Origin: a virus
Reading direction: 5' to 3' (one strand)
Virus record (IMG/VR): IMGVR_UViG_3300028859_000011
Span: 1 to 64,000 of that record
Length of the DNA stretch: 64,000 nt
Below, piece after piece: positions 26,773 through 60,616 of the stretch. Positions within the stretch are counted from its first letter, which is position 1, and the number at the start of each line of letters is the position of its first letter. A program made the position numbers and the translations under genes. The notes beneath the pieces were generated by a model, which worked only from the letters and a program-made list of their open reading frames with translations, was not told the DNA's origin and made no database searches.

Positions 26773-29700
26773 ATGATCGTAGCGCACTTAGGTGATAACC
26801 ACATTTTTAACGAAGAAGATAGACATCAAGAATATAGAGAAGTCTTTAGTAAAATTTACAAAGAATTAAAAAAAATAAAACCAGATAGAATTGCTCTATG
26901 TGGCGATCTGTTTGAAAGCAAATTAACGATCAGTAATGAATGTGATATATTAGCTGGAGAATTTTTAAATAATTTAGCTAATATTGCACCAGTTAAAATA
27001 GTTGTTGGAAATCATGATCTTAACGTTAAAAACCTTTCCAGAGTTGATAGTGTAGATACAATAGTTAAACTTATTAATAATCCAAATATTGAATATTTTA
27101 ATAAAAGTGGAATTTATAAAGATGGTGAAATATCATGGGTTGTTTATAATCATCCAGAAAAAAATGTAGATCCTTGGTTAAATCAAATTAAAGATGATAA
27201 TCAAATTTATATTGGACTTTATCATGATCCTATACAAAATTGTACAAATGATGAAGGTAGAGTTTTTAATGATAAAAAATTAAAATATATTAATTATTTT
27301 AAAAATAATGATTATCTTCTGCTTGCAGATATTCACAAACGTCAATTTTTCAGAAAAAATAAATCTGCTGCATATTGTGGATCAACTTTGCAAAAAAATT
27401 TCGGTGAAACAATAGAAAACCATGGTTTTTTAGTCTGGAATATTGAATCTGCAACTGAATTTACTGTAGATGAATATGACATACCAAATGATCACGCATT
27501 TATAAATTTTTATATAGATGAACCACTTGATTATGATACTCTTAATTTAGATACTCCTATCTTTAAAGATATGGAAATTAAAATTCAATGGAAAGATTAT
27601 AGTTCAAAAATGACTACAGTCAATGAAAAAAAGATAAGAGATTATATTAAGGATAAATTTAATATCACAAAAATCAAATTTGAAAAAATTTACTTATATA
27701 ATGATGTTATTTCATCTAAAATGTTAAGTGAAACTTTAGATTTAAGTGATTTACAAGTTCAAACTAATATTTTTAAAGAATATTTGGAAGAACAAAAATA
27801 TAAATCTGAAGATATTAAAGAAATATTAAAAATCGATGATATTATTAATAGTCGTTTACAATTAAGTGATACTATTAAAAATATTGTATGGAGTGTTGAT
27901 AAATTTTGGTTTAGTAATTTTAAATCATATGGTGAAGATAATGTTATAGATTGGAAAGATACAGACGGAATATATCAAATTTCGGGATTAAATAAATTCG
28001 GTAAAACTAGTATTCTTGATGCGCTAACATATATTCTTTATGGTAAAACTACTACTACAGTATCATCAATGAAATTTGGAGATAGTCGTTATATTAATAA
28101 CAAAAAATTCTTAGATTATTGTTTAGGAGGAGCGGTTATTGATGTTAATGGTAAAAAATTTGTAATTCAACGTAGAACAGAAAGGATATGGAATAAAGCC
28201 CATACAGCTTTAACAAGTTGTCCAACATCATTAGATTTTTATTCATCAGAAGAAATAACAGAAGAAAATAAATTAACAGGTGAAGTTAAAGATAAAACTC
28301 AAAAAATTTTAGATTCTATTTTATCTGAATTTTTGGACTTTATTAGAATGTCATATACAAACGCAGATAATCTTAATAATATATTATCTGAAACCAGAGC
28401 AATATTTATAGATAATGTTATACGGGATGCTGGTATGGATATTTTTGAAACTAAATTGAATGAATTTAAGGAATATAAGAAAGAATTGACTGATGAAAAA
28501 TTGGTAGTAGATATTCAAAAATCAGAATCTGATGTAGCAGTTTTAAGAAATGAAATCATTGATATAAATACTGAAATTGATGAGAATAAAGTTGAAATAT
28601 CTAAATTAGAATTAGAATTAGATAAGAAGAATATTGATAGAGATGATTTAAATAAAAAATTAAATAATATTGATGCTTCAATGCTTACATTTGATGAAGA
28701 TTTATATTTAAATTCTATTGAGAATTATGAAAATAAGATTAATGAATCAAAAGATAAAAATAAAATTTTAGAAATAGAGATTGAAAAATTACCTATTGAT
28801 TTTGATTCAACTAAACTTAATGATTATAAGAATGAGTTGAAGCAAACAAATATTAAAATTTCAGAAAAAAAGGATGAAATTTCAAAATTAAAAAATTCTT
28901 TAACAGAATCTGACAATAAGATTGATAAAGTAAATGTTAAGATTGATGAATTAAAGCAATCTGAGATAAGAAAAATTTCGGCAAAAATAAGTGATAATGA
29001 TTTACAAATTGAAATAATCAAAAATAAAAAATCAAATATTATAAATGATGAAATAAAAAAGTTAACATCAGAAATTCAAGTTTTTGAGTTAAAGGTTAGA
29101 GAAATAGATTCTGACATAAAAATTTTACAAAAAGATGGAGGTAATGCTAAAAAGGCTAATCAAGAATTGGATATAGAAATAGAAACATTTAAAAATTCTA
29201 AATCTTGTCCAAGTTGTGGTAGAGATTATGATAAAGCTGATCCAAAATATTCAGAACACTTAGCTCATTTGGAAGATAAGATTAAGAGTCTTGAAAGTAA
29301 AAAAGAGCCTAATATTTTAATAATGAATGAATTATTATTAAAGTATAAAGACTTAAAAAATGAATCTATTGATTGTAATATAAGTATTAATAACTTGAAT
29401 GATATGAAAAAGCTATTAATTCAAGGAGAATACAATAAAAATATTTTAACTAAATTACAAGAAGTTGGTAGTAGTAAAAAATTAAAGCAAGATAATATTG
29501 AATTAAATGCTTTAATAAAGGAAATAGAAAATAATAATTTTGATAATTCTGAAATATTAAATGAAAATATTGAAAAAGGTAAAAAATTAATAATTAATAT
29601 TGAGCAAGGTAAAGAAGATACATTATTAGTAATAAAAGATATTGAATCTGAGTTGAAAAATTTTAATATTGATGAAATAGAAAATAATATATCAATTGAA

Positions 29701-30504
29701 GAAATTACGAGAGAAAAATTTGAATTAAGAAAGCAAAAAATATCAAGTAAAGATAATATTAAATTAACAATTGAAAATTTTAATTTTAAAATAAAAGAAT
29801 TGAAATCTGATATTGAAAAATATCAAGCATATAAAATAAAAATTGAAGAAAATAAATTAATTCAATGTTCTATTGATGATATTGATAAAAAAATTAAGAA
29901 TTATAATGATAATATAAAAATTTTATATCAAGAAAATATTAATTTTGAAAAGAAAATACTCATTAAAGAAACTGAAATAGTTTCAATTTTAAATAAAATT
30001 AAAAAATACTTAGCTCAGAAGAAAAAGGAAGAATTATTAAAAGAATATTCAAAATGTATTGGTCGTGATGGAATTCCAAGTTTTCTTTTAAAAAAATCTA
30101 TACATTTAATAAATAGAGAATTATCAGAATTATTATCTAATGTAGATTTCACTTTATTTTTTGATGAAGAATTAGAATTGAAATTGAGTATGGATGATAG
30201 AATGGATGTAAATCAGCCTGCAATAACCAGCAGTGGTGCTGAAAGAACATTTTCTGCTCTTGCTTTAAAGATGGCATTAAGACAAATAAATGTTAAGTCA
30301 AAATCATCAATAATTTTTCTTGATGAAATTACTGGTAAATTGATAGGTGATTCTATTCAGCAGTTTATGGATTTTCTTGATGTATTAAAAACAAAAGTTG
30401 AAAAAATTGTTATTATTGAGCATGTTCATCAAATAAATTTTGATGCTTTAATTGAAGTTAAAAAAGATGAAAACTTAATTTCACATTTGGAATTACAAAA
30501 ATAA
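26773..30504 (+). CDS. Fused SbcD/Mre11 nuclease - SbcC/Rad50 ATPase (T4 gp47-gp46-like)
   Basis: HLGDNH, GDLF, GNHD, DIHKRQ phosphoesterase motifs; Walker A GLNKFGKTS, CPSC hook, signature SSGAE, Walker B IFLDE, IIEH. Confidence 0.9.
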   Translation: MIVAHLGDNHIFNEEDRHQEYREVFSKIYKELKKIKPDRIALCGDLFESKLTISNECDILAGEFLNNLANIAPVKIVVGNHDLNVKNLSRVDSVDTIVKLINNPNIEYFNKSGIYKDGEISWVVYNHPEKNVDPWLNQIKDDNQIYIGLYHDPIQNCTNDEGRVFNDKKLKYINYFKNNDYLLLADIHKRQFFRKNKSAAYCGSTLQKNFGETIENHGFLVWNIESATEFTVDEYDIPNDHAFINFYIDEPLDYDTLNLDTPIFKDMEIKIQWKDYSSKMTTVNEKKIRDYIKDKFNITKIKFEKIYLYNDVISSKMLSETLDLSDLQVQTNIFKEYLEEQKYKSEDIKEILKIDDIINSRLQLSDTIKNIVWSVDKFWFSNFKSYGEDNVIDWKDTDGIYQISGLNKFGKTSILDALTYILYGKTTTTVSSMKFGDSRYINNKKFLDYCLGGAVIDVNGKKFVIQRRTERIWNKAHTALTSCPTSLDFYSSEEITEENKLTGEVKDKTQKILDSILSEFLDFIRMSYTNADNLNNILSETRAIFIDNVIRDAGMDIFETKLNEFKEYKKELTDEKLVVDIQKSESDVAVLRNEIIDINTEIDENKVEISKLELELDKKNIDRDDLNKKLNNIDASMLTFDEDLYLNSIENYENKINESKDKNKILEIEIEKLPIDFDSTKLNDYKNELKQTNIKISEKKDEISKLKNSLTESDNKIDKVNVKIDELKQSEIRKISAKISDNDLQIEIIKNKKSNIINDEIKKLTSEIQVFELKVREIDSDIKILQKDGGNAKKANQELDIEIETFKNSKSCPSCGRDYDKADPKYSEHLAHLEDKIKSLESKKEPNILIMNELLLKYKDLKNESIDCNISINNLNDMKKLLIQGEYNKNILTKLQEVGSSKKLKQDNIELNALIKEIENNNFDNSEILNENIEKGKKLIINIEQGKEDTLLVIKDIESELKNFNIDEIENNISIEEITREKFELRKQKISSKDNIKLTIENFNFKIKELKSDIEKYQAYKIKIEENKLIQCSIDDIDKKIKNYNDNIKILYQENINFEKKILIKETEIVSILNKIKKYLAQKKKEELLKEYSKCIGRDGIPSFLLKKSIHLINRELSELLSNVDFTLFFDEELELKLSMDDRMDVNQPAITSSGAERTFSALALKMALRQINVKSKSSIIFLDEITGKLIGDSIQQFMDFLDVLKTKVEKIVIIEHVHQINFDALIEVKKDENLISHLELQK

Positions 30505-32606: not shown

Positions 32607-35141
32607 ATGAATTACTCAAAAGAAGTAGAAGAAGTTATCAAATTAAGCAAGGAAATTGCTATTAATATTCGTTCTAAGTCTATTAAACCTGAACATTTAT
32701 TTTTGGCAATGATTGATGACGATCATTCTGAAACATCTGAAATATTGAGGGATTTAAATCTCAATATTGGCGCAATTAAGCAAACAATTCGTGAGTTGTC
32801 TACATCTGAACAACCTGGAATAAATACACTTAGAAAGAATGCATCAATTCCAATTGACTCATCAACTGAAAAAATTCTTACAGATTCTGCTATTTTAGCT
32901 AAAAAAATGGGAACAGATGAAGTTAGTGTAGAACATGTTTTATGTGCTATATTAGAAAATAAAAATAATTTAGTATCAGAATTATTTAGTAAATCTCCTG
33001 ATATTTTAAGGAGTCTAATGATGATTTTGAAAAATGAGGATCATCTTGATGAATACAATAATGAAATTAATGAACGAGATATAGAAGATTATCAAGATGA
33101 GTCTAACATTAAAGATGATACTAAAAATAAATCAAAAACTAAATTGATTGATCAGTTTGGTACTAATCTTACCAATCTTGCAAAAGAAGGTAAATTAGAT
33201 CCAGTAGTTGGACGTGCAGATGAAATTAAAAGAATTTCGCAGATATTATCCAGACGTAAGAAAAATAATCCTGTATTAGTAGGTGAACCAGGTGTAGGTA
33301 AATCTGCGATTGTTGAAGGATTAGCTCAATTAATTGTAGATGGACTTGTTCCTGAAAATTTACAAAATAAAAAGGTTATAACTCTTGATATGGGGTCTTT
33401 GGTAGCAGGAACTAAATATCGTGGTGAATTTGAACAAAGATTAAGAGGTATTGTCAAAGAAATGGAAGAAAATACTGATATTATTTTATTCATTGATGAA
33501 ATTCATACTATTATTGGAGCAGGTTCTGCAGCAGGATCACTTGATGCTTCTAATATGTTGAAACCAGGATTAGCCAGAGGAACATTTAGATGTATTGGCG
33601 CTACTACTCTTGAAGAATATAGAAAGTATATTGAAAAAGATGCAGCATTAGAACGTAGATTTCAAAAAGTTGTAATTGATGCAACTAGTAAATCTGAAAC
33701 ATTAGAAATTCTTAAGAATATCAAAAAACAATATGAAAATCATCATAAAGTTACATATACTGATGATGCATTAGAAGCATGTGTTAATTTATCTGATAAA
33801 TATATATCAGATAAATTCTTTCCAGACAAAGCAATTGATGTTCTTGATGAAGCTGGAGCTATGGTTCATGTTAATGGAACAAGTGCAATTCCAGATAAAA
33901 TTGTAGAACTCAGTAAAAAAATAAAAATTTCTATTTCTGAAAAACTTGAAAGTATTGCAGCACAGAAATTTGAGAAAGCTGCTGTTCATAGAGACAATGA
34001 AAAACAATGGAAATCTGAACTTGAATCAGAAAGAGAAATATGGAGTCAGGAACATACTGATCATAGAGATGTAGTAACTCAAAAAGAAATAGCTGAAGTT
34101 GTTGCCCTAATGACAAAAATACCTGTAGATAATGTATCCGTTGATGAAAATAACAAGTTAAAATTTATGGCGGATAAAGTAAAAACTGTTGTTATTGGAC
34201 AAGATGATGCTGTTGATAAAATAGTTCAATCAGTTAAAAGGGCAAGAGTTGGTATTACTAATCATAGTAAGCCTGTTGGGTCTTTTGTTTTCTCTGGACC
34301 TACTGGAGTAGGTAAAACATATCTTGCAAAAATTATGGCAAAGGAGTTATTTGGATCAGAAGATGCAATGATTAGAATTGATATGAGTGAATTTATGGAA
34401 AAATTCTCTGTATCTAGATTAGTAGGAGCACCTCCAGGCTATGTTGGATATGAAGAAGGTGGTAAATTAACAGAAGCAGTAAGACGTAAACCATATTCTA
34501 TTATTCTTCTTGATGAAATGGAAAAAGCTCATCCAGATGTTCAAAATATACTTCTTCAAGTATTAGATGATGGTGTATTAACTGATAGTAATGGTCGTAA
34601 AGTAGATTTTAAAAATACTATTATAGTTATGACAACAAATGCAGGTTCAAGAAAATTGAAAGATTTTGGTGCTGGAATTGGATTTGGACTTAATAAAAAC
34701 AGTCAGCAATCTAAAAATGATGTTCTTAAAAAAGAATTAGAAAAAGTATTTAGTCCTGAATTTTTAAATCGTATTGATGAAATTATAAATTTCAATTCTT
34801 TAAGTAAAGAAAATATTTGTGGCATTATTGATGTTGAATGTAAATCTTTGATATCTAATCTTAAAGAAAAAGGATATGATATAATTATATCTCAATCACT
34901 TAAAGATTACTTATTTGAAAATGGTTATGATGAAAATTATGGAGCAAGGCCATTAAAACGAGCAATTCAAAGTAATATCGAAGATAAACTCGCTGATGCT
35001 ATTATTGATCAAGAAATCTCAGTTGGTGATAAAATATCATTAATATATGATAAAGAAAGTTCATCTGTTAAAATTTCAAAATTGTCAACTAAAGAGATTA
35101 AGGCTAGTAATATCTTAACAGAAAATACTACAGTTTCTTAA
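32607..35141 (+). CDS. clpC: ClpC-type AAA+ unfoldase
   Basis: Clp N-domain, GEPGVGKS and GPTGVGKT Walker A motifs, UVR-type M-domain ([11 protein letters not shown]) and ClpP-docking IGF loop (GAGIGFG). Confidence 0.92.
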
Positions 35142-43980: not shown

Positions 43981-44496
43981 TTAATTTTCATCTTTTATAA
44001 ATTGTGTATAATTTAAATCTAGCATAACTTCTCTATCAAAAACATTAACTGCAATTTTAGATTTTTTCTTAACATCATCAAGAGTTTTAATGACTCCTTT
44101 GAAATTATTAAATGGTCCATCTATTATTTTAACTCGTTCTTTAATATAATAAGTATTATCATTAACATAAACAATTAAATCATCAGTTTTTTTGTCTAAT
44201 AATCTATCAACTTCAGATTGCCTTAATGGTTTTTTTAATACACTTTGTACTCCTCCAATATATTTAACAAAACCTTCAACAGTATCTATAGATTCACATT
44301 CAATAAATATATAACCTGGTATTGTTATTTTTTCAACATTTATCTTTTTTCCATTTCTTAATTGCTGAGTTTTATTACTAGGTACTAATATATTTGATAT
44401 GAGATTTTCAATAGGATGCATTTTTAATTCGTGTTCTATTGATTCTTTTACTTTTTTTTCTTTGCCATTGGCAACTTTTATAACATAGTATTTCAT
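43981..44496 (-). CDS. nusG: Transcription factor NusG homologue
   Basis: YYVIKVANGKEKKV, PGYIFIE (NGN domain); VKIIDGPFNNFKGVI (KOW). Confidence 0.9.
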   Translation of the reverse strand: MKYYVIKVANGKEKKVKESIEHELKMHPIENLISNILVPSNKTQQLRNGKKINVEKITIPGYIFIECESIDTVEGFVKYIGGVQSVLKKPLRQSEVDRLLDKKTDDLIVYVNDNTYYIKERVKIIDGPFNNFKGVIKTLDDVKKKSKIAVNVFDREVMLDLNYTQFIKDEN

Positions 44497-59234: not shown

Positions 59235-59477
59235 ATGTTAGAGGAAATTATAAATAATTATCCAGATGAAGAAATATTATCTGCTGATGGATTAGATGAT
59301 GCAGTTATTGGACTTGAAATAAACTCAATGAGATTGATATACTCAGTATCAAAATGTATTGAAATATTTATAAATGACGGCATGACAGAAGAAGAAGCAG
59401 AAGAATATTTTGAATATAATACTGCTAACGCTTATGTGGGTGATCATACACCAATATGGTGCTACGATGATTTTTAA
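59235..59477 (+). CDS. Conserved phage hypothetical protein
   Basis: ADGLDDAVIG...EEAEEYFEYN...YVGxxTP is a pattern I recognise from aquatic phages. Confidence 0.7.
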   Translation: MLEEIINNYPDEEILSADGLDDAVIGLEINSMRLIYSVSKCIEIFINDGMTEEEAEEYFEYNTANAYVGDHTPIWCYDDF

Positions 59478-59717
59478 AAATAACAATATTATGAAAAAAT
59501 GGACAGATTTATTGGTAGGTGATCCAATATATATTTTAAAATATGTTAAAAAAATATAACTAGTTTTATTGAAACAAAATGTGAAGGATTTGATAACATA
59601 GGTTATGCAATTGTTATTTATTATTATGTTGAGAGATTAGCAAATGATAAAGATTTTGAAGGTAAAGATTCCGTTACAAAAAATTTAAATAAAAATATAA
59701 AAAAGTGTAAATAAAAT

Positions 59718-59724
59718 AAACTTT
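59718..59724 (+). promoter_or_regulatory. Putative middle-type promoter motif AAACTTT, representative copy
   Basis: Also at about 1184, 9904, 31972, 42279, 42586, 45071 and 50391, and on minus near 38005 and 48817, generally followed by a TATTAT-like hexamer. Confidence 0.5.
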
Positions 59725-59760
59725 TTTAAAATATTATACTATTAAATATAATTAAACAAA

Positions 59761-60097
59761 TAGTTCTTTGATGTCATGATAAAATGGTTGTTAGTTAAAA
59801 ACTTAACTAACGTAAAATCATAAAAGTAATAAGTTTGATTAAAAATCAAACTGAAACTTTTAATCTTTATACATATCAATAATATTGATTACAGTAAACA
59901 TAAAACGATTAATACACTTTTAAATACATCTTAACAACGGACTATAATAAGTCTTAAAAATGGTTGTTCGTTATGTAGTTTAAATAATTAAAAGCGACTA
60001 CGATTTCTTTAAACTATAGAGAATAGTGTGTTCGGATAAAGAATTTCATCAAACGAAATTCAAACGTCACAGCAAGTACAAATTTGTATAAGTTTAA
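59761..60097 (+). ncRNA. Candidate ~340 nt structured non-coding RNA
   Basis: ORF-free; at least seven short stems; AAACTTT-type promoter motif at 59718; boxA-like AGTTCTTTGA at its 5' end. Confidence 0.5.
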
Positions 60098-60415
60098 GTT
60101 GACGGTACTGGATTATATTTTCCATTATATAAAGCAGATATAGATAGTTCTAAAACAGAAGATAATAATAACTATTACTTTTGCGATATTGATGCTGTTA
60201 TAGATGAAATGAATGAATATGAAAAAGATTTAAATGATTTAAAATCTAAATTTAATAAATTATTTGATACTATAATTGATATAAAAAATAAATAATTTGA
60301 TTTGATGTATATTTTTTGTTCAATTAAATATGATGTTCATTGTCAATGAAGTTAATATTATTTTGAACAAAATATTTTTTATATCAAGATATTATTGTAT
60401 ATTTGCAAAAAAATT

Positions 60416-60616
60416 ATGAAAGATAAAAAATCAGAAGATATATATTCTAATTGGGTTAAAGATTCAGGAATAAAAGATTTGACTGGTAATCAATCAAATT
60501 TTGTTAAAATGATTATTTTAAATAGAAAATATATTTGTGAAATAGGAAGCTTTAATAAAATATTTATTAGCATTTATAAATATTTGAAGAATAATCGTGA
60601 AAAATTAGAAGATTGA
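60416..60616 (+). CDS. Hypothetical protein
   Basis: First ATG after the TATATTTG box at 60398. Confidence 0.5.
   Translation: MKDKKSEDIYSNWVKDSGIKDLTGNQSNFVKMIILNRKYICEIGSFNKIFISIYKYLKNNREKLED

What the first reader, a model, noticed from the sequence alone, without database searches (positions are those of the whole stretch)
59761..60097. About 340 nt ORF-free, multi-hairpin RNA with a boxA-like 5' end
Seen stems: GTTAGTTAA/TTAACTAAC (59790-59811), AGTTTGATT/AATCAAACT (59832-59852), ATCAAT/ATTGAT (59875-59889), AACAAC/GTTGTT enclosing GACT/AGTC (59933-59968), GTAGT/ACTAC (59975-60001), TTCTTTA/TAAAGAA enclosing ACTAT/ATAGT (60005-60043) and TACA/TGTA (60077-60088). AAAATGGTTGTT occurs twice, which allows alternative pairing with TAACAAC. 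An AAACTTT motif lies upstream and AGTTCTTTGA opens the region. Established: boxA elements precede stable RNAs and work with Nus factors; this window encodes NusG. I recognise no known family.
Basis: partly seen in the sequence, partly recalled or inferred. Interest (0 to 1): 0.7.

Follow-up and report, generated by a model that had tools for sequence, protein, structure and literature searches.

The report
Guide-RNA mini-transposon splitting a phage gene
The "ORF-free multi-hairpin RNA" is the body of a 443-base, protein-less relic of an IS607-type jumping gene that has landed inside a small dispensable gene of a huge phage and still carries the folded scaffold of the guide RNA used by the RNA-guided nuclease TnpB; it is a member of a known kind, not a new RNA class.

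Summary
But the region is not a free-standing RNA gene. A related phage contig (L009) has an intact 120-codon gene where this window has a 443-nt insert (59663-60105). The junctions carry GG on both sides. The same insert, 98.7% identical, sits in a different gene in six other phage contigs, so it is mobile.

Its two ends match a 1.57-kb element that encodes a 485-aa TnpB. More distant relatives carry a MerR-resolvase transposase next to tnpB, which places the clade in the IS607 family.

The last 112 nt (59994-60105) form a conserved three-part RNA fold. It is supported by covariation across nine sequences from phages and Clostridia, and it ends in CGG at the transposon edge, as published IS607 guide-RNA (omegaRNA) scaffolds do.

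It has no recognisable origin and only near-identical copies, so its structure cannot be tested.

No boxA, group I intron or Rfam family was found.

This scan has already noted similar IS607/TnpB elements and mini-derivatives in other large phages. Verdict: new member of a known kind, of modest interest.

The parts
59491..59662 (+). 5' part of the interrupted host gene (120 codons when intact). It also carries a 1-nt deletion at the A7 run 59548-59554, which shifts the frame.
   Evidence: L009 3010-3372 is an intact 120-aa ORF collinear with window 59491-59662 plus 60106-60295. The frameshift shows when one search is read.
59658..59662 (+). Left flank GAAGG, the presumed target-adjacent motif (TAM), with the GG core dinucleotide at 59661-59662.
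   Evidence: The left flanks at three independent sites are GAAGG, AAAGG and AGAGG. IS607 elements need a GG core and have G-rich TAMs (papers read).
59663..60105 (+). The whole 443-nt protein-less mini-element. Its boundary is ambiguous by up to 4 nt because GGTA occurs at both junctions.
   Evidence: It is absent from L009. It is present at 98.7% identity in another gene in L018-L023 and L072/L073.
59663..59735 (+). Left end (LE), homologous to the left end of the 1.57-kb tnpB element.
   Evidence: 89% identity over 70 nt to L034 3263-3332.
59736..59985 (+). Middle module of unknown origin. It holds the perfect 9-bp hairpins at 59790-59811 and 59832-59852, the hairpin at 59875-59889, the nested stem at 59933-59968, and the 17-nt direct repeat (59781-97 and 59957-73).
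   Evidence: No match in the full-length element, in TnpB protein space, or elsewhere in eight phage records. Fold z is -3.05 on + and -2.37 on -. A natural variant lacks 41 nt including hairpin 1.
59986..60102 (+). Decayed last ~38 codons of tnpB, with frameshifts and an internal stop. The former stop codon TGA is at 60100-60102.
   Evidence: tblastn of the 485-aa TnpB against the element; blastn gives 85% identity over 125 nt.
59994..60105 (+). omegaRNA (reRNA) scaffold. Stem A (59995-60002 with 60027-60034) encloses hairpin H1 (60005-11/60017-23). Then come the junction GAUAA(A)G and hairpin H2 (60041-47/60055-61). Stem D (60065-73 with 60092-60104) encloses H3 (60076-80/60085-89). The scaffold ends in ...ACGG.
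   Evidence: Eight homologous 3' ends fold independently to the same architecture. A model built from 4 phage sequences finds the Clostridial and distant viral relatives end to end. 93% of cells are paired against 75% in shuffles and 31-46% in slid controls, and 20 of 36 pairs show changes on both sides.
60106..60125 (+). Presumed guide segment of the omegaRNA, which is the first bases of the 3' part of the host gene.
   Evidence: Inferred from the family's geometry, in which the guide is the flank next to the right end (papers read). The L009 empty site has GAAGG followed by the same 20 nt with one mismatch at position 12.
60106..60295 (+). 3' part of the interrupted host gene. It has no start codon of its own until late in the frame.
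   Evidence: Stop-to-stop frame 60098-60295; collinear with L009 3182-3372.

Best explanation
Window 59663-60105 is a non-autonomous, protein-less derivative of an IS607-family (serine-recombinase TnpA plus TnpB) insertion sequence. It keeps the left end (about 70 nt) and the right end, which holds the last ~38 decayed codons of tnpB and a 112-nt omegaRNA scaffold. It also carries 250 nt of unknown origin in between. It inserted at a GG next to a purine-rich motif (GAAGG) inside a small accessory phage gene, which it disrupts. Shown here: it is an insertion, because an empty site exists. It is mobile as a mini-element, because the same unit sits in a second gene in another phage lineage. Its ends are homologous to a TnpB-encoding element. 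Its clade is IS607. Its 3' 112 nt are a conserved, covarying RNA fold that ends at the transposon edge. Inferred from published work on IS607/IS605 elements: the unit is moved in trans by a serine TnpA. Its transcript (from the left end or by read-through of the host gene) yields an omegaRNA whose guide is the adjacent 16-20 nt of the host gene. A cognate TnpB supplied in trans would then cut element-free alleles (GAAGG plus target, as in L009). Repair from an element-bearing genome would copy the element in during co-infection. The window copy may equally be a decaying relic. No cognate TnpB lies in the 125 kb held, and the scaffold lacks the conserved segment that precedes it in full-length relatives.
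For: Empty site and intact 120-aa ORF in L009. The same element in another gene is found in six IMG/VR contigs and two metagenome contigs, and removing it restores an ORF there too. A 1.57-kb relative has matching ends and a 485-aa protein with the OrfB_IS605 and Cas12f1-like TNB domains. A tnpB 3' remnant lies inside the element. Relatives at 46-47% identity have MerR+Resolvase TnpA directly upstream. No Y1 transposase was found in five phage records, but resolvases are present in three. GG lies at both junctions and the right end is ...ACGG at all sites, matching the GG core, G-rich TAM and ...UCGG scaffold end reported for the C. botulinum IS607 element (10.1101/2023.11.20.567912). The RNA fold is conserved and covaries and is strand-specific. 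Protein-less PATE-like elements that keep omegaRNAs for use in trans are described in PMC10055086.
Against: No expression data are available. The only TnpB in the 125 kb held of this genome is a 32%-identical one with no match to this RNA model. The mini-element lacks the conserved segment upstream of the scaffold that all full-length relatives share, so the guide RNA may be incomplete. The host gene also has a frameshift, so nothing shows that the insertion is being 'managed'. The middle 250 nt are unexplained. The family is rare: only three or four insertion contexts were found in IMG/VR and JGI metagenomes.
Confidence: 0.85

Rival explanations
1. Self-splicing IStron-like element. The 443 nt are removed from the mRNA by a ribozyme, with the structured middle module acting as the catalytic core, so that the host ORF is restored at the RNA level.
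For: All insertions seen are in the sense orientation inside ORFs, and exact removal restores the frame. IS607 elements with group I introns exist and splice at the transposon boundaries even with a G-rich TAM. The middle module is strongly structured and of unknown origin.
Against: No group I, group II or other ribozyme family reached even E<=10 when the element alone was scanned. The full-length relative has only about 100 nt before tnpB and 3 nt after it, which leaves no room for an intron. Purine-purine-GG motifs are 3.6-fold commoner on the sense strand here, which by itself explains the orientation. The host gene also carries a frameshift. A natural variant lacks 41 nt of the middle.
Confidence: 0.05
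2. Independent phage non-coding RNA gene that begins with a boxA site and is read through with the help of the phage NusG.
For: Good + strand folding. A NusG-domain gene lies in the window.
Against: The whole stretch is an insertion absent from the closest relative, and it occurs elsewhere in a different context with its own transposon ends. No boxA consensus is present, and the TTCTTT core occurs 38 times in the window. The supposed 5' end at 59761 lies in the middle of the element and is not a conserved boundary.
Confidence: 0.02
3. IS200/IS605-type PATE moved by a Y1 (HUH) transposase as single-stranded DNA, rather than an IS607 derivative.
For: Insertion 3' of a short motif and scarless empty site. 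TnpB is shared by both families.
Against: Relatives carry serine-recombinase TnpA, not Y1. No Y1_Tnp was found in five phage records. GG lies at both junctions and the TAM is G-rich rather than T/A-rich. The left and right ends have no similar subterminal hairpins.
Confidence: 0.04

Closest known systems
IS607-family elements with TnpB and omegaRNA, as characterised for the Clostridium botulinum element (CboIStron; bioRxiv 10.1101/2023.11.20.567912, published in Science 2024 per my own knowledge)
   Same: Serine-recombinase TnpA in relatives, GG core dinucleotide at both junctions, G-rich motif 5' of the left end, scarless empty site, and a guide-RNA scaffold that ends in CGG at the right end. 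A mini-IS lacking both genes is still mobilisable in that study.
   Different: No group I intron is detectable. The natural unit here has no genes at all. The TAM is (A/G)(A/G)GG rather than TGGG. The omegaRNA largely overlaps the tnpB 3' coding region in the phage relatives. The host is a huge phage.
PATE-like protein-less derivatives of IS200/IS605 elements that keep an omegaRNA (Meers et al., PMC10055086)
   Same: A minimal non-autonomous element made of transposon ends plus a guide-RNA scaffold, dependent on TnpA and TnpB in trans.
   Different: Those belong to the Y1-transposase IS605 family and have palindromic ends and T/A-rich TAMs. This one is of IS607 descent and carries an extra 250-nt structured module.
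IS607 TnpB with RAGATH-18-derived reRNA (ISFba1; PMC11061315)
   Same: IS607 TnpB guided by a structured RNA at the right end, with G-rich TAMs (AGGAG, GAGGG).
   Different: RAGATH-18 (an Rfam family) does not match here or in the relatives. There the reRNA is independent of the coding sequence and 187 nt long, and TnpB is about 390 aa against 485 aa here.

Membership tests
IS607-family insertion sequence (non-autonomous derivative) | Ends homologous to those of an element that encodes TnpB | tested here: met
   Left end 89% over 70 nt and right end 85% over 125 nt to the 1.57-kb element in L034/L065. Its 485-aa ORF has OrfB_IS605 (7e-10) and Cas12f1-like TNB (9e-10).
IS607-family insertion sequence (non-autonomous derivative) | Serine-recombinase TnpA (N-terminal MerR-type HTH plus resolvase catalytic domain) associated with the clade | tested here: met
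   L068 and L077 (TnpB 46-47% identical, same RNA at the right end) have MerR+Resolvase ORFs directly upstream of tnpB. The mini-element itself encodes nothing.
IS607-family insertion sequence (non-autonomous derivative) | GG core dinucleotide at both junctions, no terminal inverted repeats, scarless empty site | tested here: met
   The junctions are ...AAGG|T... and ...ACGG|T.... The L009 empty site is GAAGG directly followed by the right flank. L067 is an exception (right end ...ACGA) and also lacks a left end.
IS607-family insertion sequence (non-autonomous derivative) | Mobility of the unit (more than one insertion site) | tested here: met
   The same 443/444-nt unit sits in two unrelated genes in two phage lineages at 98.7% identity.
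TnpB omegaRNA / reRNA | Lies at the 3' end of tnpB and runs to the right transposon boundary | tested here: met
   In L065, L067, L068, L075-L077 and L161 the homologous segment overlaps or follows the tnpB 3' end and stops at ...AAGTYRACGG.
TnpB omegaRNA / reRNA | Conserved secondary structure supported by covariation | tested here: met
   Same three-part fold in eight independent MFE predictions. On the model-fitted alignment A5, 20 of 36 pairs change on both sides and 93% of cells are paired against 31-46% when slid. The unfitted MAFFT alignment already shows compensatory pairs in stems A and D.
TnpB omegaRNA / reRNA | Complete scaffold as in full-length relatives | tested here: inconclusive
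   The segment just upstream (the codons for K-L-C-N-P, with an invariant CTG Leu codon in all seven relatives) is missing from the mini-element. Whether it is part of the RNA is unknown.
TnpB omegaRNA / reRNA | Transcribed, bound by TnpB, and directs TAM-dependent DNA cleavage | not testable with these tools
   No expression or biochemical data. A cognate TnpB is present in the same genome as the second-locus copies (G002) but not in the 125 kb held for this genome.
Group I intron / IStron | Group I catalytic core recognisable by covariance model | tested here: not met
   No Intron_gpI (or any ribozyme) hit at gathering score or at E<=10 in 1051 nt or in the 481-nt element alone.
boxA / Nus antitermination site | boxA consensus at the 5' end of a stable RNA operon | tested here: not met
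   The rrn-type 13-mer and the lambda-type 8-mer are both absent from the window. Only a TTCTTT core is present, at 38 sites.
IS200/IS605 PATE | Y1 (HUH) TnpA partner and similar subterminal hairpins at both ends | tested here: not met
   No PF01797 match in five phage records, with the control genomes positive. The left-end and right-end hairpins are unlike each other.

The most novel reading that the evidence does not exclude
The 250-nt middle module (59736-59985) is not junk but a new functional RNA that an IS607 mini-transposon has picked up. It contains two perfect 9-bp hairpins, a nested stem and a 17-nt direct repeat that allows alternative pairing. One possible role is a compact self-cleaving or self-splicing unit that frees the omegaRNA 5' end or removes the element from the host mRNA. 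Another is a set of binding sites that lets the mini-element hijack a foreign serine transposase.
Probability: 0.07. Interest if true: 0.7.

Novelty: new member of a known kind. Interest (0 to 1): 0.33.

Why it matters
It removes a false lead: there is no new boxA-headed phage RNA here. It also gives a clean natural example of a gene-less IS607 derivative that has moved between genes of huge phages while keeping only its ends and the TnpB guide-RNA scaffold. Together with the element-free allele in a sister phage (L009), this forms a filled/empty pair. The pair would let one test whether TnpB guide RNAs drive homing between co-infecting phages, as homing endonucleases do in T4-like phages. The 112-nt RNA fold, shared by phage and Clostridial IS607 TnpBs, is not in Rfam 15 and could be added as a family.

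Tried and rejected
- Rfam at gathering score (whole window), at E<=10 (59400-60450 and 59645-60125), and at E<=1 on four related elements gave only chance miRNA/snoRNA hits.
- ARAGORN found no tRNA or tmRNA. No terminator-like sites were found, and promoter-like sites were at the chance level.
- GenBank phages (blastn, distant mode) gave no match.
- Canonical intron boundaries were checked by hand. The site-shared junction repeat (GGTA) allows no junction with U before and G at the end (group I) or with GUGYG...AY (group II). The window's longer 9-nt imperfect repeat does allow one group I-type junction (exon ending at 59655, intron 59656-60098). It would, however, put site-specific bases inside the intron. 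I did not use this as a decisive argument once I read that IS607 IStrons splice after a G-rich TAM.
- A 15-mer scan of IMG/VR returned 35 loci, nearly all chance.
- A gapped pattern scan of GTDB genomes returned 120 loci, of which only one (L161) was real by the covariance model.
- The whole-genome RNA-model search missed known copies because only 150 candidates are scored.
- The right-end pattern in viral and metagenome collections gave no further insertion sites.
- Searches for an empty site of the second locus were negative by exact pattern and in five records.
- Searches for the middle module elsewhere gave only weak AT-rich matches.

Full report
CONTEXT. The window is the first 64 kb of a 125.5-kb IMG/VR virus record that CheckV rates 18% complete. 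Its GC content is 20-28%. It carries densely packed small genes and typical large-phage functions: a ClpB-like ATPase, an SbcCD-like fusion, an NAD-dependent ligase and a tail-fibre chaperone domain. So it is a piece of a very large phage genome.

The 17-nt repeat occurs twice, against 0.2 expected by chance. No standard ORF fills 59715-60097. The + strand of 59761-60097 folds at -63.2 kcal/mol against -47.9 for shuffles, giving z -4.13. The - strand gives z -1.61.

IT IS AN INSERTION IN A GENE. Two frames next to the region are open but lack start codons (59550-59714 and 60098-60295).
- I fetched relatives through the ligase gene downstream and compared them by blastn.
- Contig L009 matches the window up to about 59664 and resumes at 60099.
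- There L009 has one intact 120-codon ORF (L009 3010-3372).
- The window therefore carries a 443-nt insert. GGTA occurs at both junctions, so the boundary can be placed anywhere within 4 nt. I place it after the GG, giving element coordinates 59663-60105.
- The window's copy of the gene also has a 1-nt deletion in an A7 run (59548-54) relative to L009.
- Four further relatives (L010-L013) and L016 lack the whole gene, so the gene is dispensable.
The idea was right, but the boundaries were not.

IT IS MOBILE.
- A 21-mer from the insert found six other IMG/VR contigs of 181-256 kb. In all of them the match covers exactly the insert (window 59659-60107) and the flanks are unrelated to the window's.
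- The alignment shows one shared second locus with 98.7% identity. Two contigs carry a 41-nt deletion that removes hairpin 1.
- Removing the 444 nt there also restores a continuous ORF.
- The left flanks are GAAGG (window) and AAAGG (second locus), and the element ends ...ACGG in both.

IT DESCENDS FROM A tnpB ELEMENT OF THE IS607 FAMILY.
- In the same contig as one second-locus copy, a 1,566-nt element has the same ends. The left end is 89% identical over 70 nt and the right end 85% over 125 nt.
- That element encodes a 485-aa protein with the OrfB_IS605 and Cas12f1-like TNB domains, which makes it a TnpB. Its left flank is AGAGG. Its stop codon lies inside the terminal ...GACGG.
- The window element retains only the last ~38 codons of tnpB, now frameshifted.
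- TnpB relatives at 46-47% identity occur in one viral contig and in Clostridial genomes (Caloranaerobacter, UBA3567).
- Two of these have a MerR-HTH plus resolvase gene directly upstream, the hallmark IS607 transposase.
- No Y1 transposase occurs in five of the phage records, while resolvase genes occur in three.
- The published C. botulinum IS607 element shows a strict GG core dinucleotide, a G-rich TAM (TGGG) and an omegaRNA scaffold ending ...UCGG (10.1101/2023.11.20.567912). Other IS607 TnpBs use AGGAG or GAGGG (PMC11061315). The junctions here fit that pattern.

THE 3' 112 NT ARE A CONSERVED RNA.
- In all relatives, the segment from GCGACTWCGA to AAGTYRACGG can be delimited.
- Eight such segments, folded one by one, give the same architecture. 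Stem A encloses hairpin H1. A GAUAAG junction and hairpin H2 follow. Stem D encloses H3 and closes one base before the end. The hairpin sequences are entirely different in the three subgroups.
- RNAalifold on a plain MAFFT alignment already shows compensatory pairs in stems A and D.
- A covariance model built from only the four phage sequences finds the Clostridial and distant viral copies end to end, at E 1e-7 to 4e-5. It also picks the single true member out of 120 pattern hits.
- On the resulting nine-sequence alignment, 93.1% of cells pair, against 75.4% in shuffles (0 of 500 reach it) and 31-46% when partners are slid. Twenty of 36 pairs show changes on both sides. That alignment is fitted to the model, so the figures lean towards the structure, but the independent folds agree.
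- The fold is strand-specific: z is -2.27 on + and -0.30 on -.
- The position at the tnpB 3' end, the termination at the transposon edge and the CGG end are what defines a TnpB omegaRNA/reRNA scaffold.
- No Rfam 15 family, including RAGATH-18, matches it.

WHAT REMAINS UNEXPLAINED.
They have no counterpart in the full-length element, in TnpB protein space or elsewhere in eight phage records.
- Their stability is similar on both strands (z -3.05 and -2.37), as expected for perfect palindromes. By a rough estimate of my own, two perfect 9-bp stems are unlikely by chance.
- One natural variant has lost 41 nt of the module. All copies are near-identical, so covariation cannot be tested.
- The mini-element lacks the segment just upstream of the scaffold that all full-length relatives share, including an invariant CTG codon in AT-rich genomes. 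The guide RNA may therefore be incomplete.

MECHANISM.
- Shown: insertion, mobility, descent and RNA fold.
- Inferred from the literature: a serine TnpA in trans excises and integrates the unit at GG.
- Also inferred: transcription from the left end or from the host gene yields scaffold plus guide (60106 onward).
- Also inferred: a cognate TnpB cuts element-free alleles. L009 has GAAGG followed by the same 20 nt with one mismatch. Recombinational repair would then copy the element in during co-infection.
- The second-locus phages encode the cognate TnpB in the same genome. In this genome only a 32%-identical TnpB, within an IS607 unit at 118.6-120.4 kb, is visible in the 18% held, and it does not match the RNA model.
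- The window copy may thus be an orphan or a relic.

RIVALS.
- An IStron-like self-splicing reading is attractive because every insertion is sense-oriented in an ORF. But no ribozyme model matches, and the full-length relative has no room for an intron. Purine-purine-GG motifs are 3.6 times commoner on the sense strand (36 against 10), which explains the orientation.
- The boxA/Nus reading fails. A NusG-domain gene exists, but no boxA consensus does, and the proposed 5' end is an arbitrary point inside a transposon.
- An IS605-type PATE is excluded by the transposase type and the junctions.

NOVELTY. Protein-less derivatives that keep an omegaRNA are described for IS605 (PMC10055086). IS607 biology is established. 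This scan has itself noted IS607/TnpB elements and 123-284-nt mini-derivatives in other large phages (not checked by me). This is a new member of a known kind. Its modest value lies in the demonstrated mobility of the gene-less unit, the natural filled/empty pair, and an uncurated omegaRNA fold shared by phages and Clostridia.

Noticed in passing
window 59548-59554: The interrupted host gene also has a 1-nt deletion in an A7 run relative to L009, which shifts the frame after 21 codons. This is either a real second lesion (pseudogene) or a homopolymer assembly error.
   Followed up: partly
window 59489-60369 versus L010-L013 and L016: The whole 120-codon gene is absent from five related contigs whose flanks join directly, so the host gene is itself a variable accessory cassette.
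   Followed up: partly
G000 118.5-120.5 kb (L035 about 590-2540), outside the window: A complete IS607 unit: a 198-aa resolvase-type TnpA and a 396-aa TnpB 32% identical to the L065 TnpB. It appears to split a small Cys-rich gene that is a paralogue of the ORF just upstream (L035 154-498). No Rfam family and no match to model R1 at its 3' end.
   Followed up: partly
L067 1486-2949 (IMGVR_UViG_3300029983_000007): A TnpB 82% identical to L065 starts 19 nt after the preceding gene, with no recognisable left end. Its right end reads ...ACGA instead of ...ACGG. It is possibly an immobilised or domesticated copy that still keeps the full RNA fold (128 bits).
   Followed up: no
L202 992-3228 (G002 about 191.8-194.0 kb): A second IS607-like pair in the phage that carries the mini-element: a 200-aa HTH+resolvase TnpA followed by a 533-aa TnpB-like protein with RuvC-like motifs. 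It is a candidate trans-mobiliser, but its ends were not compared.
   Followed up: no
L065 about 2810-2848 and the same place in L067, L068, L075-L077, L161: The codons for K-L-C-N-P just upstream of the scaffold are conserved at the nucleotide level, with CTG for Leu in all seven AT-rich sequences. This hints that the omegaRNA scaffold extends into the coding region.
   Followed up: no
window 43981-44496 (- strand): 171-aa ORF with a NusG N-terminal domain (48.6 bits), a phage-encoded NusG-like factor. It is unrelated to the finding.
   Followed up: partly
window 26773-30504 and 32607-35141: A 1243-aa fusion of an SbcD-like phosphoesterase with an SbcC/AAA_23 ATPase, and an 844-aa ClpB-like double AAA+ chaperone. 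These are large-phage accessory functions.
   Followed up: no
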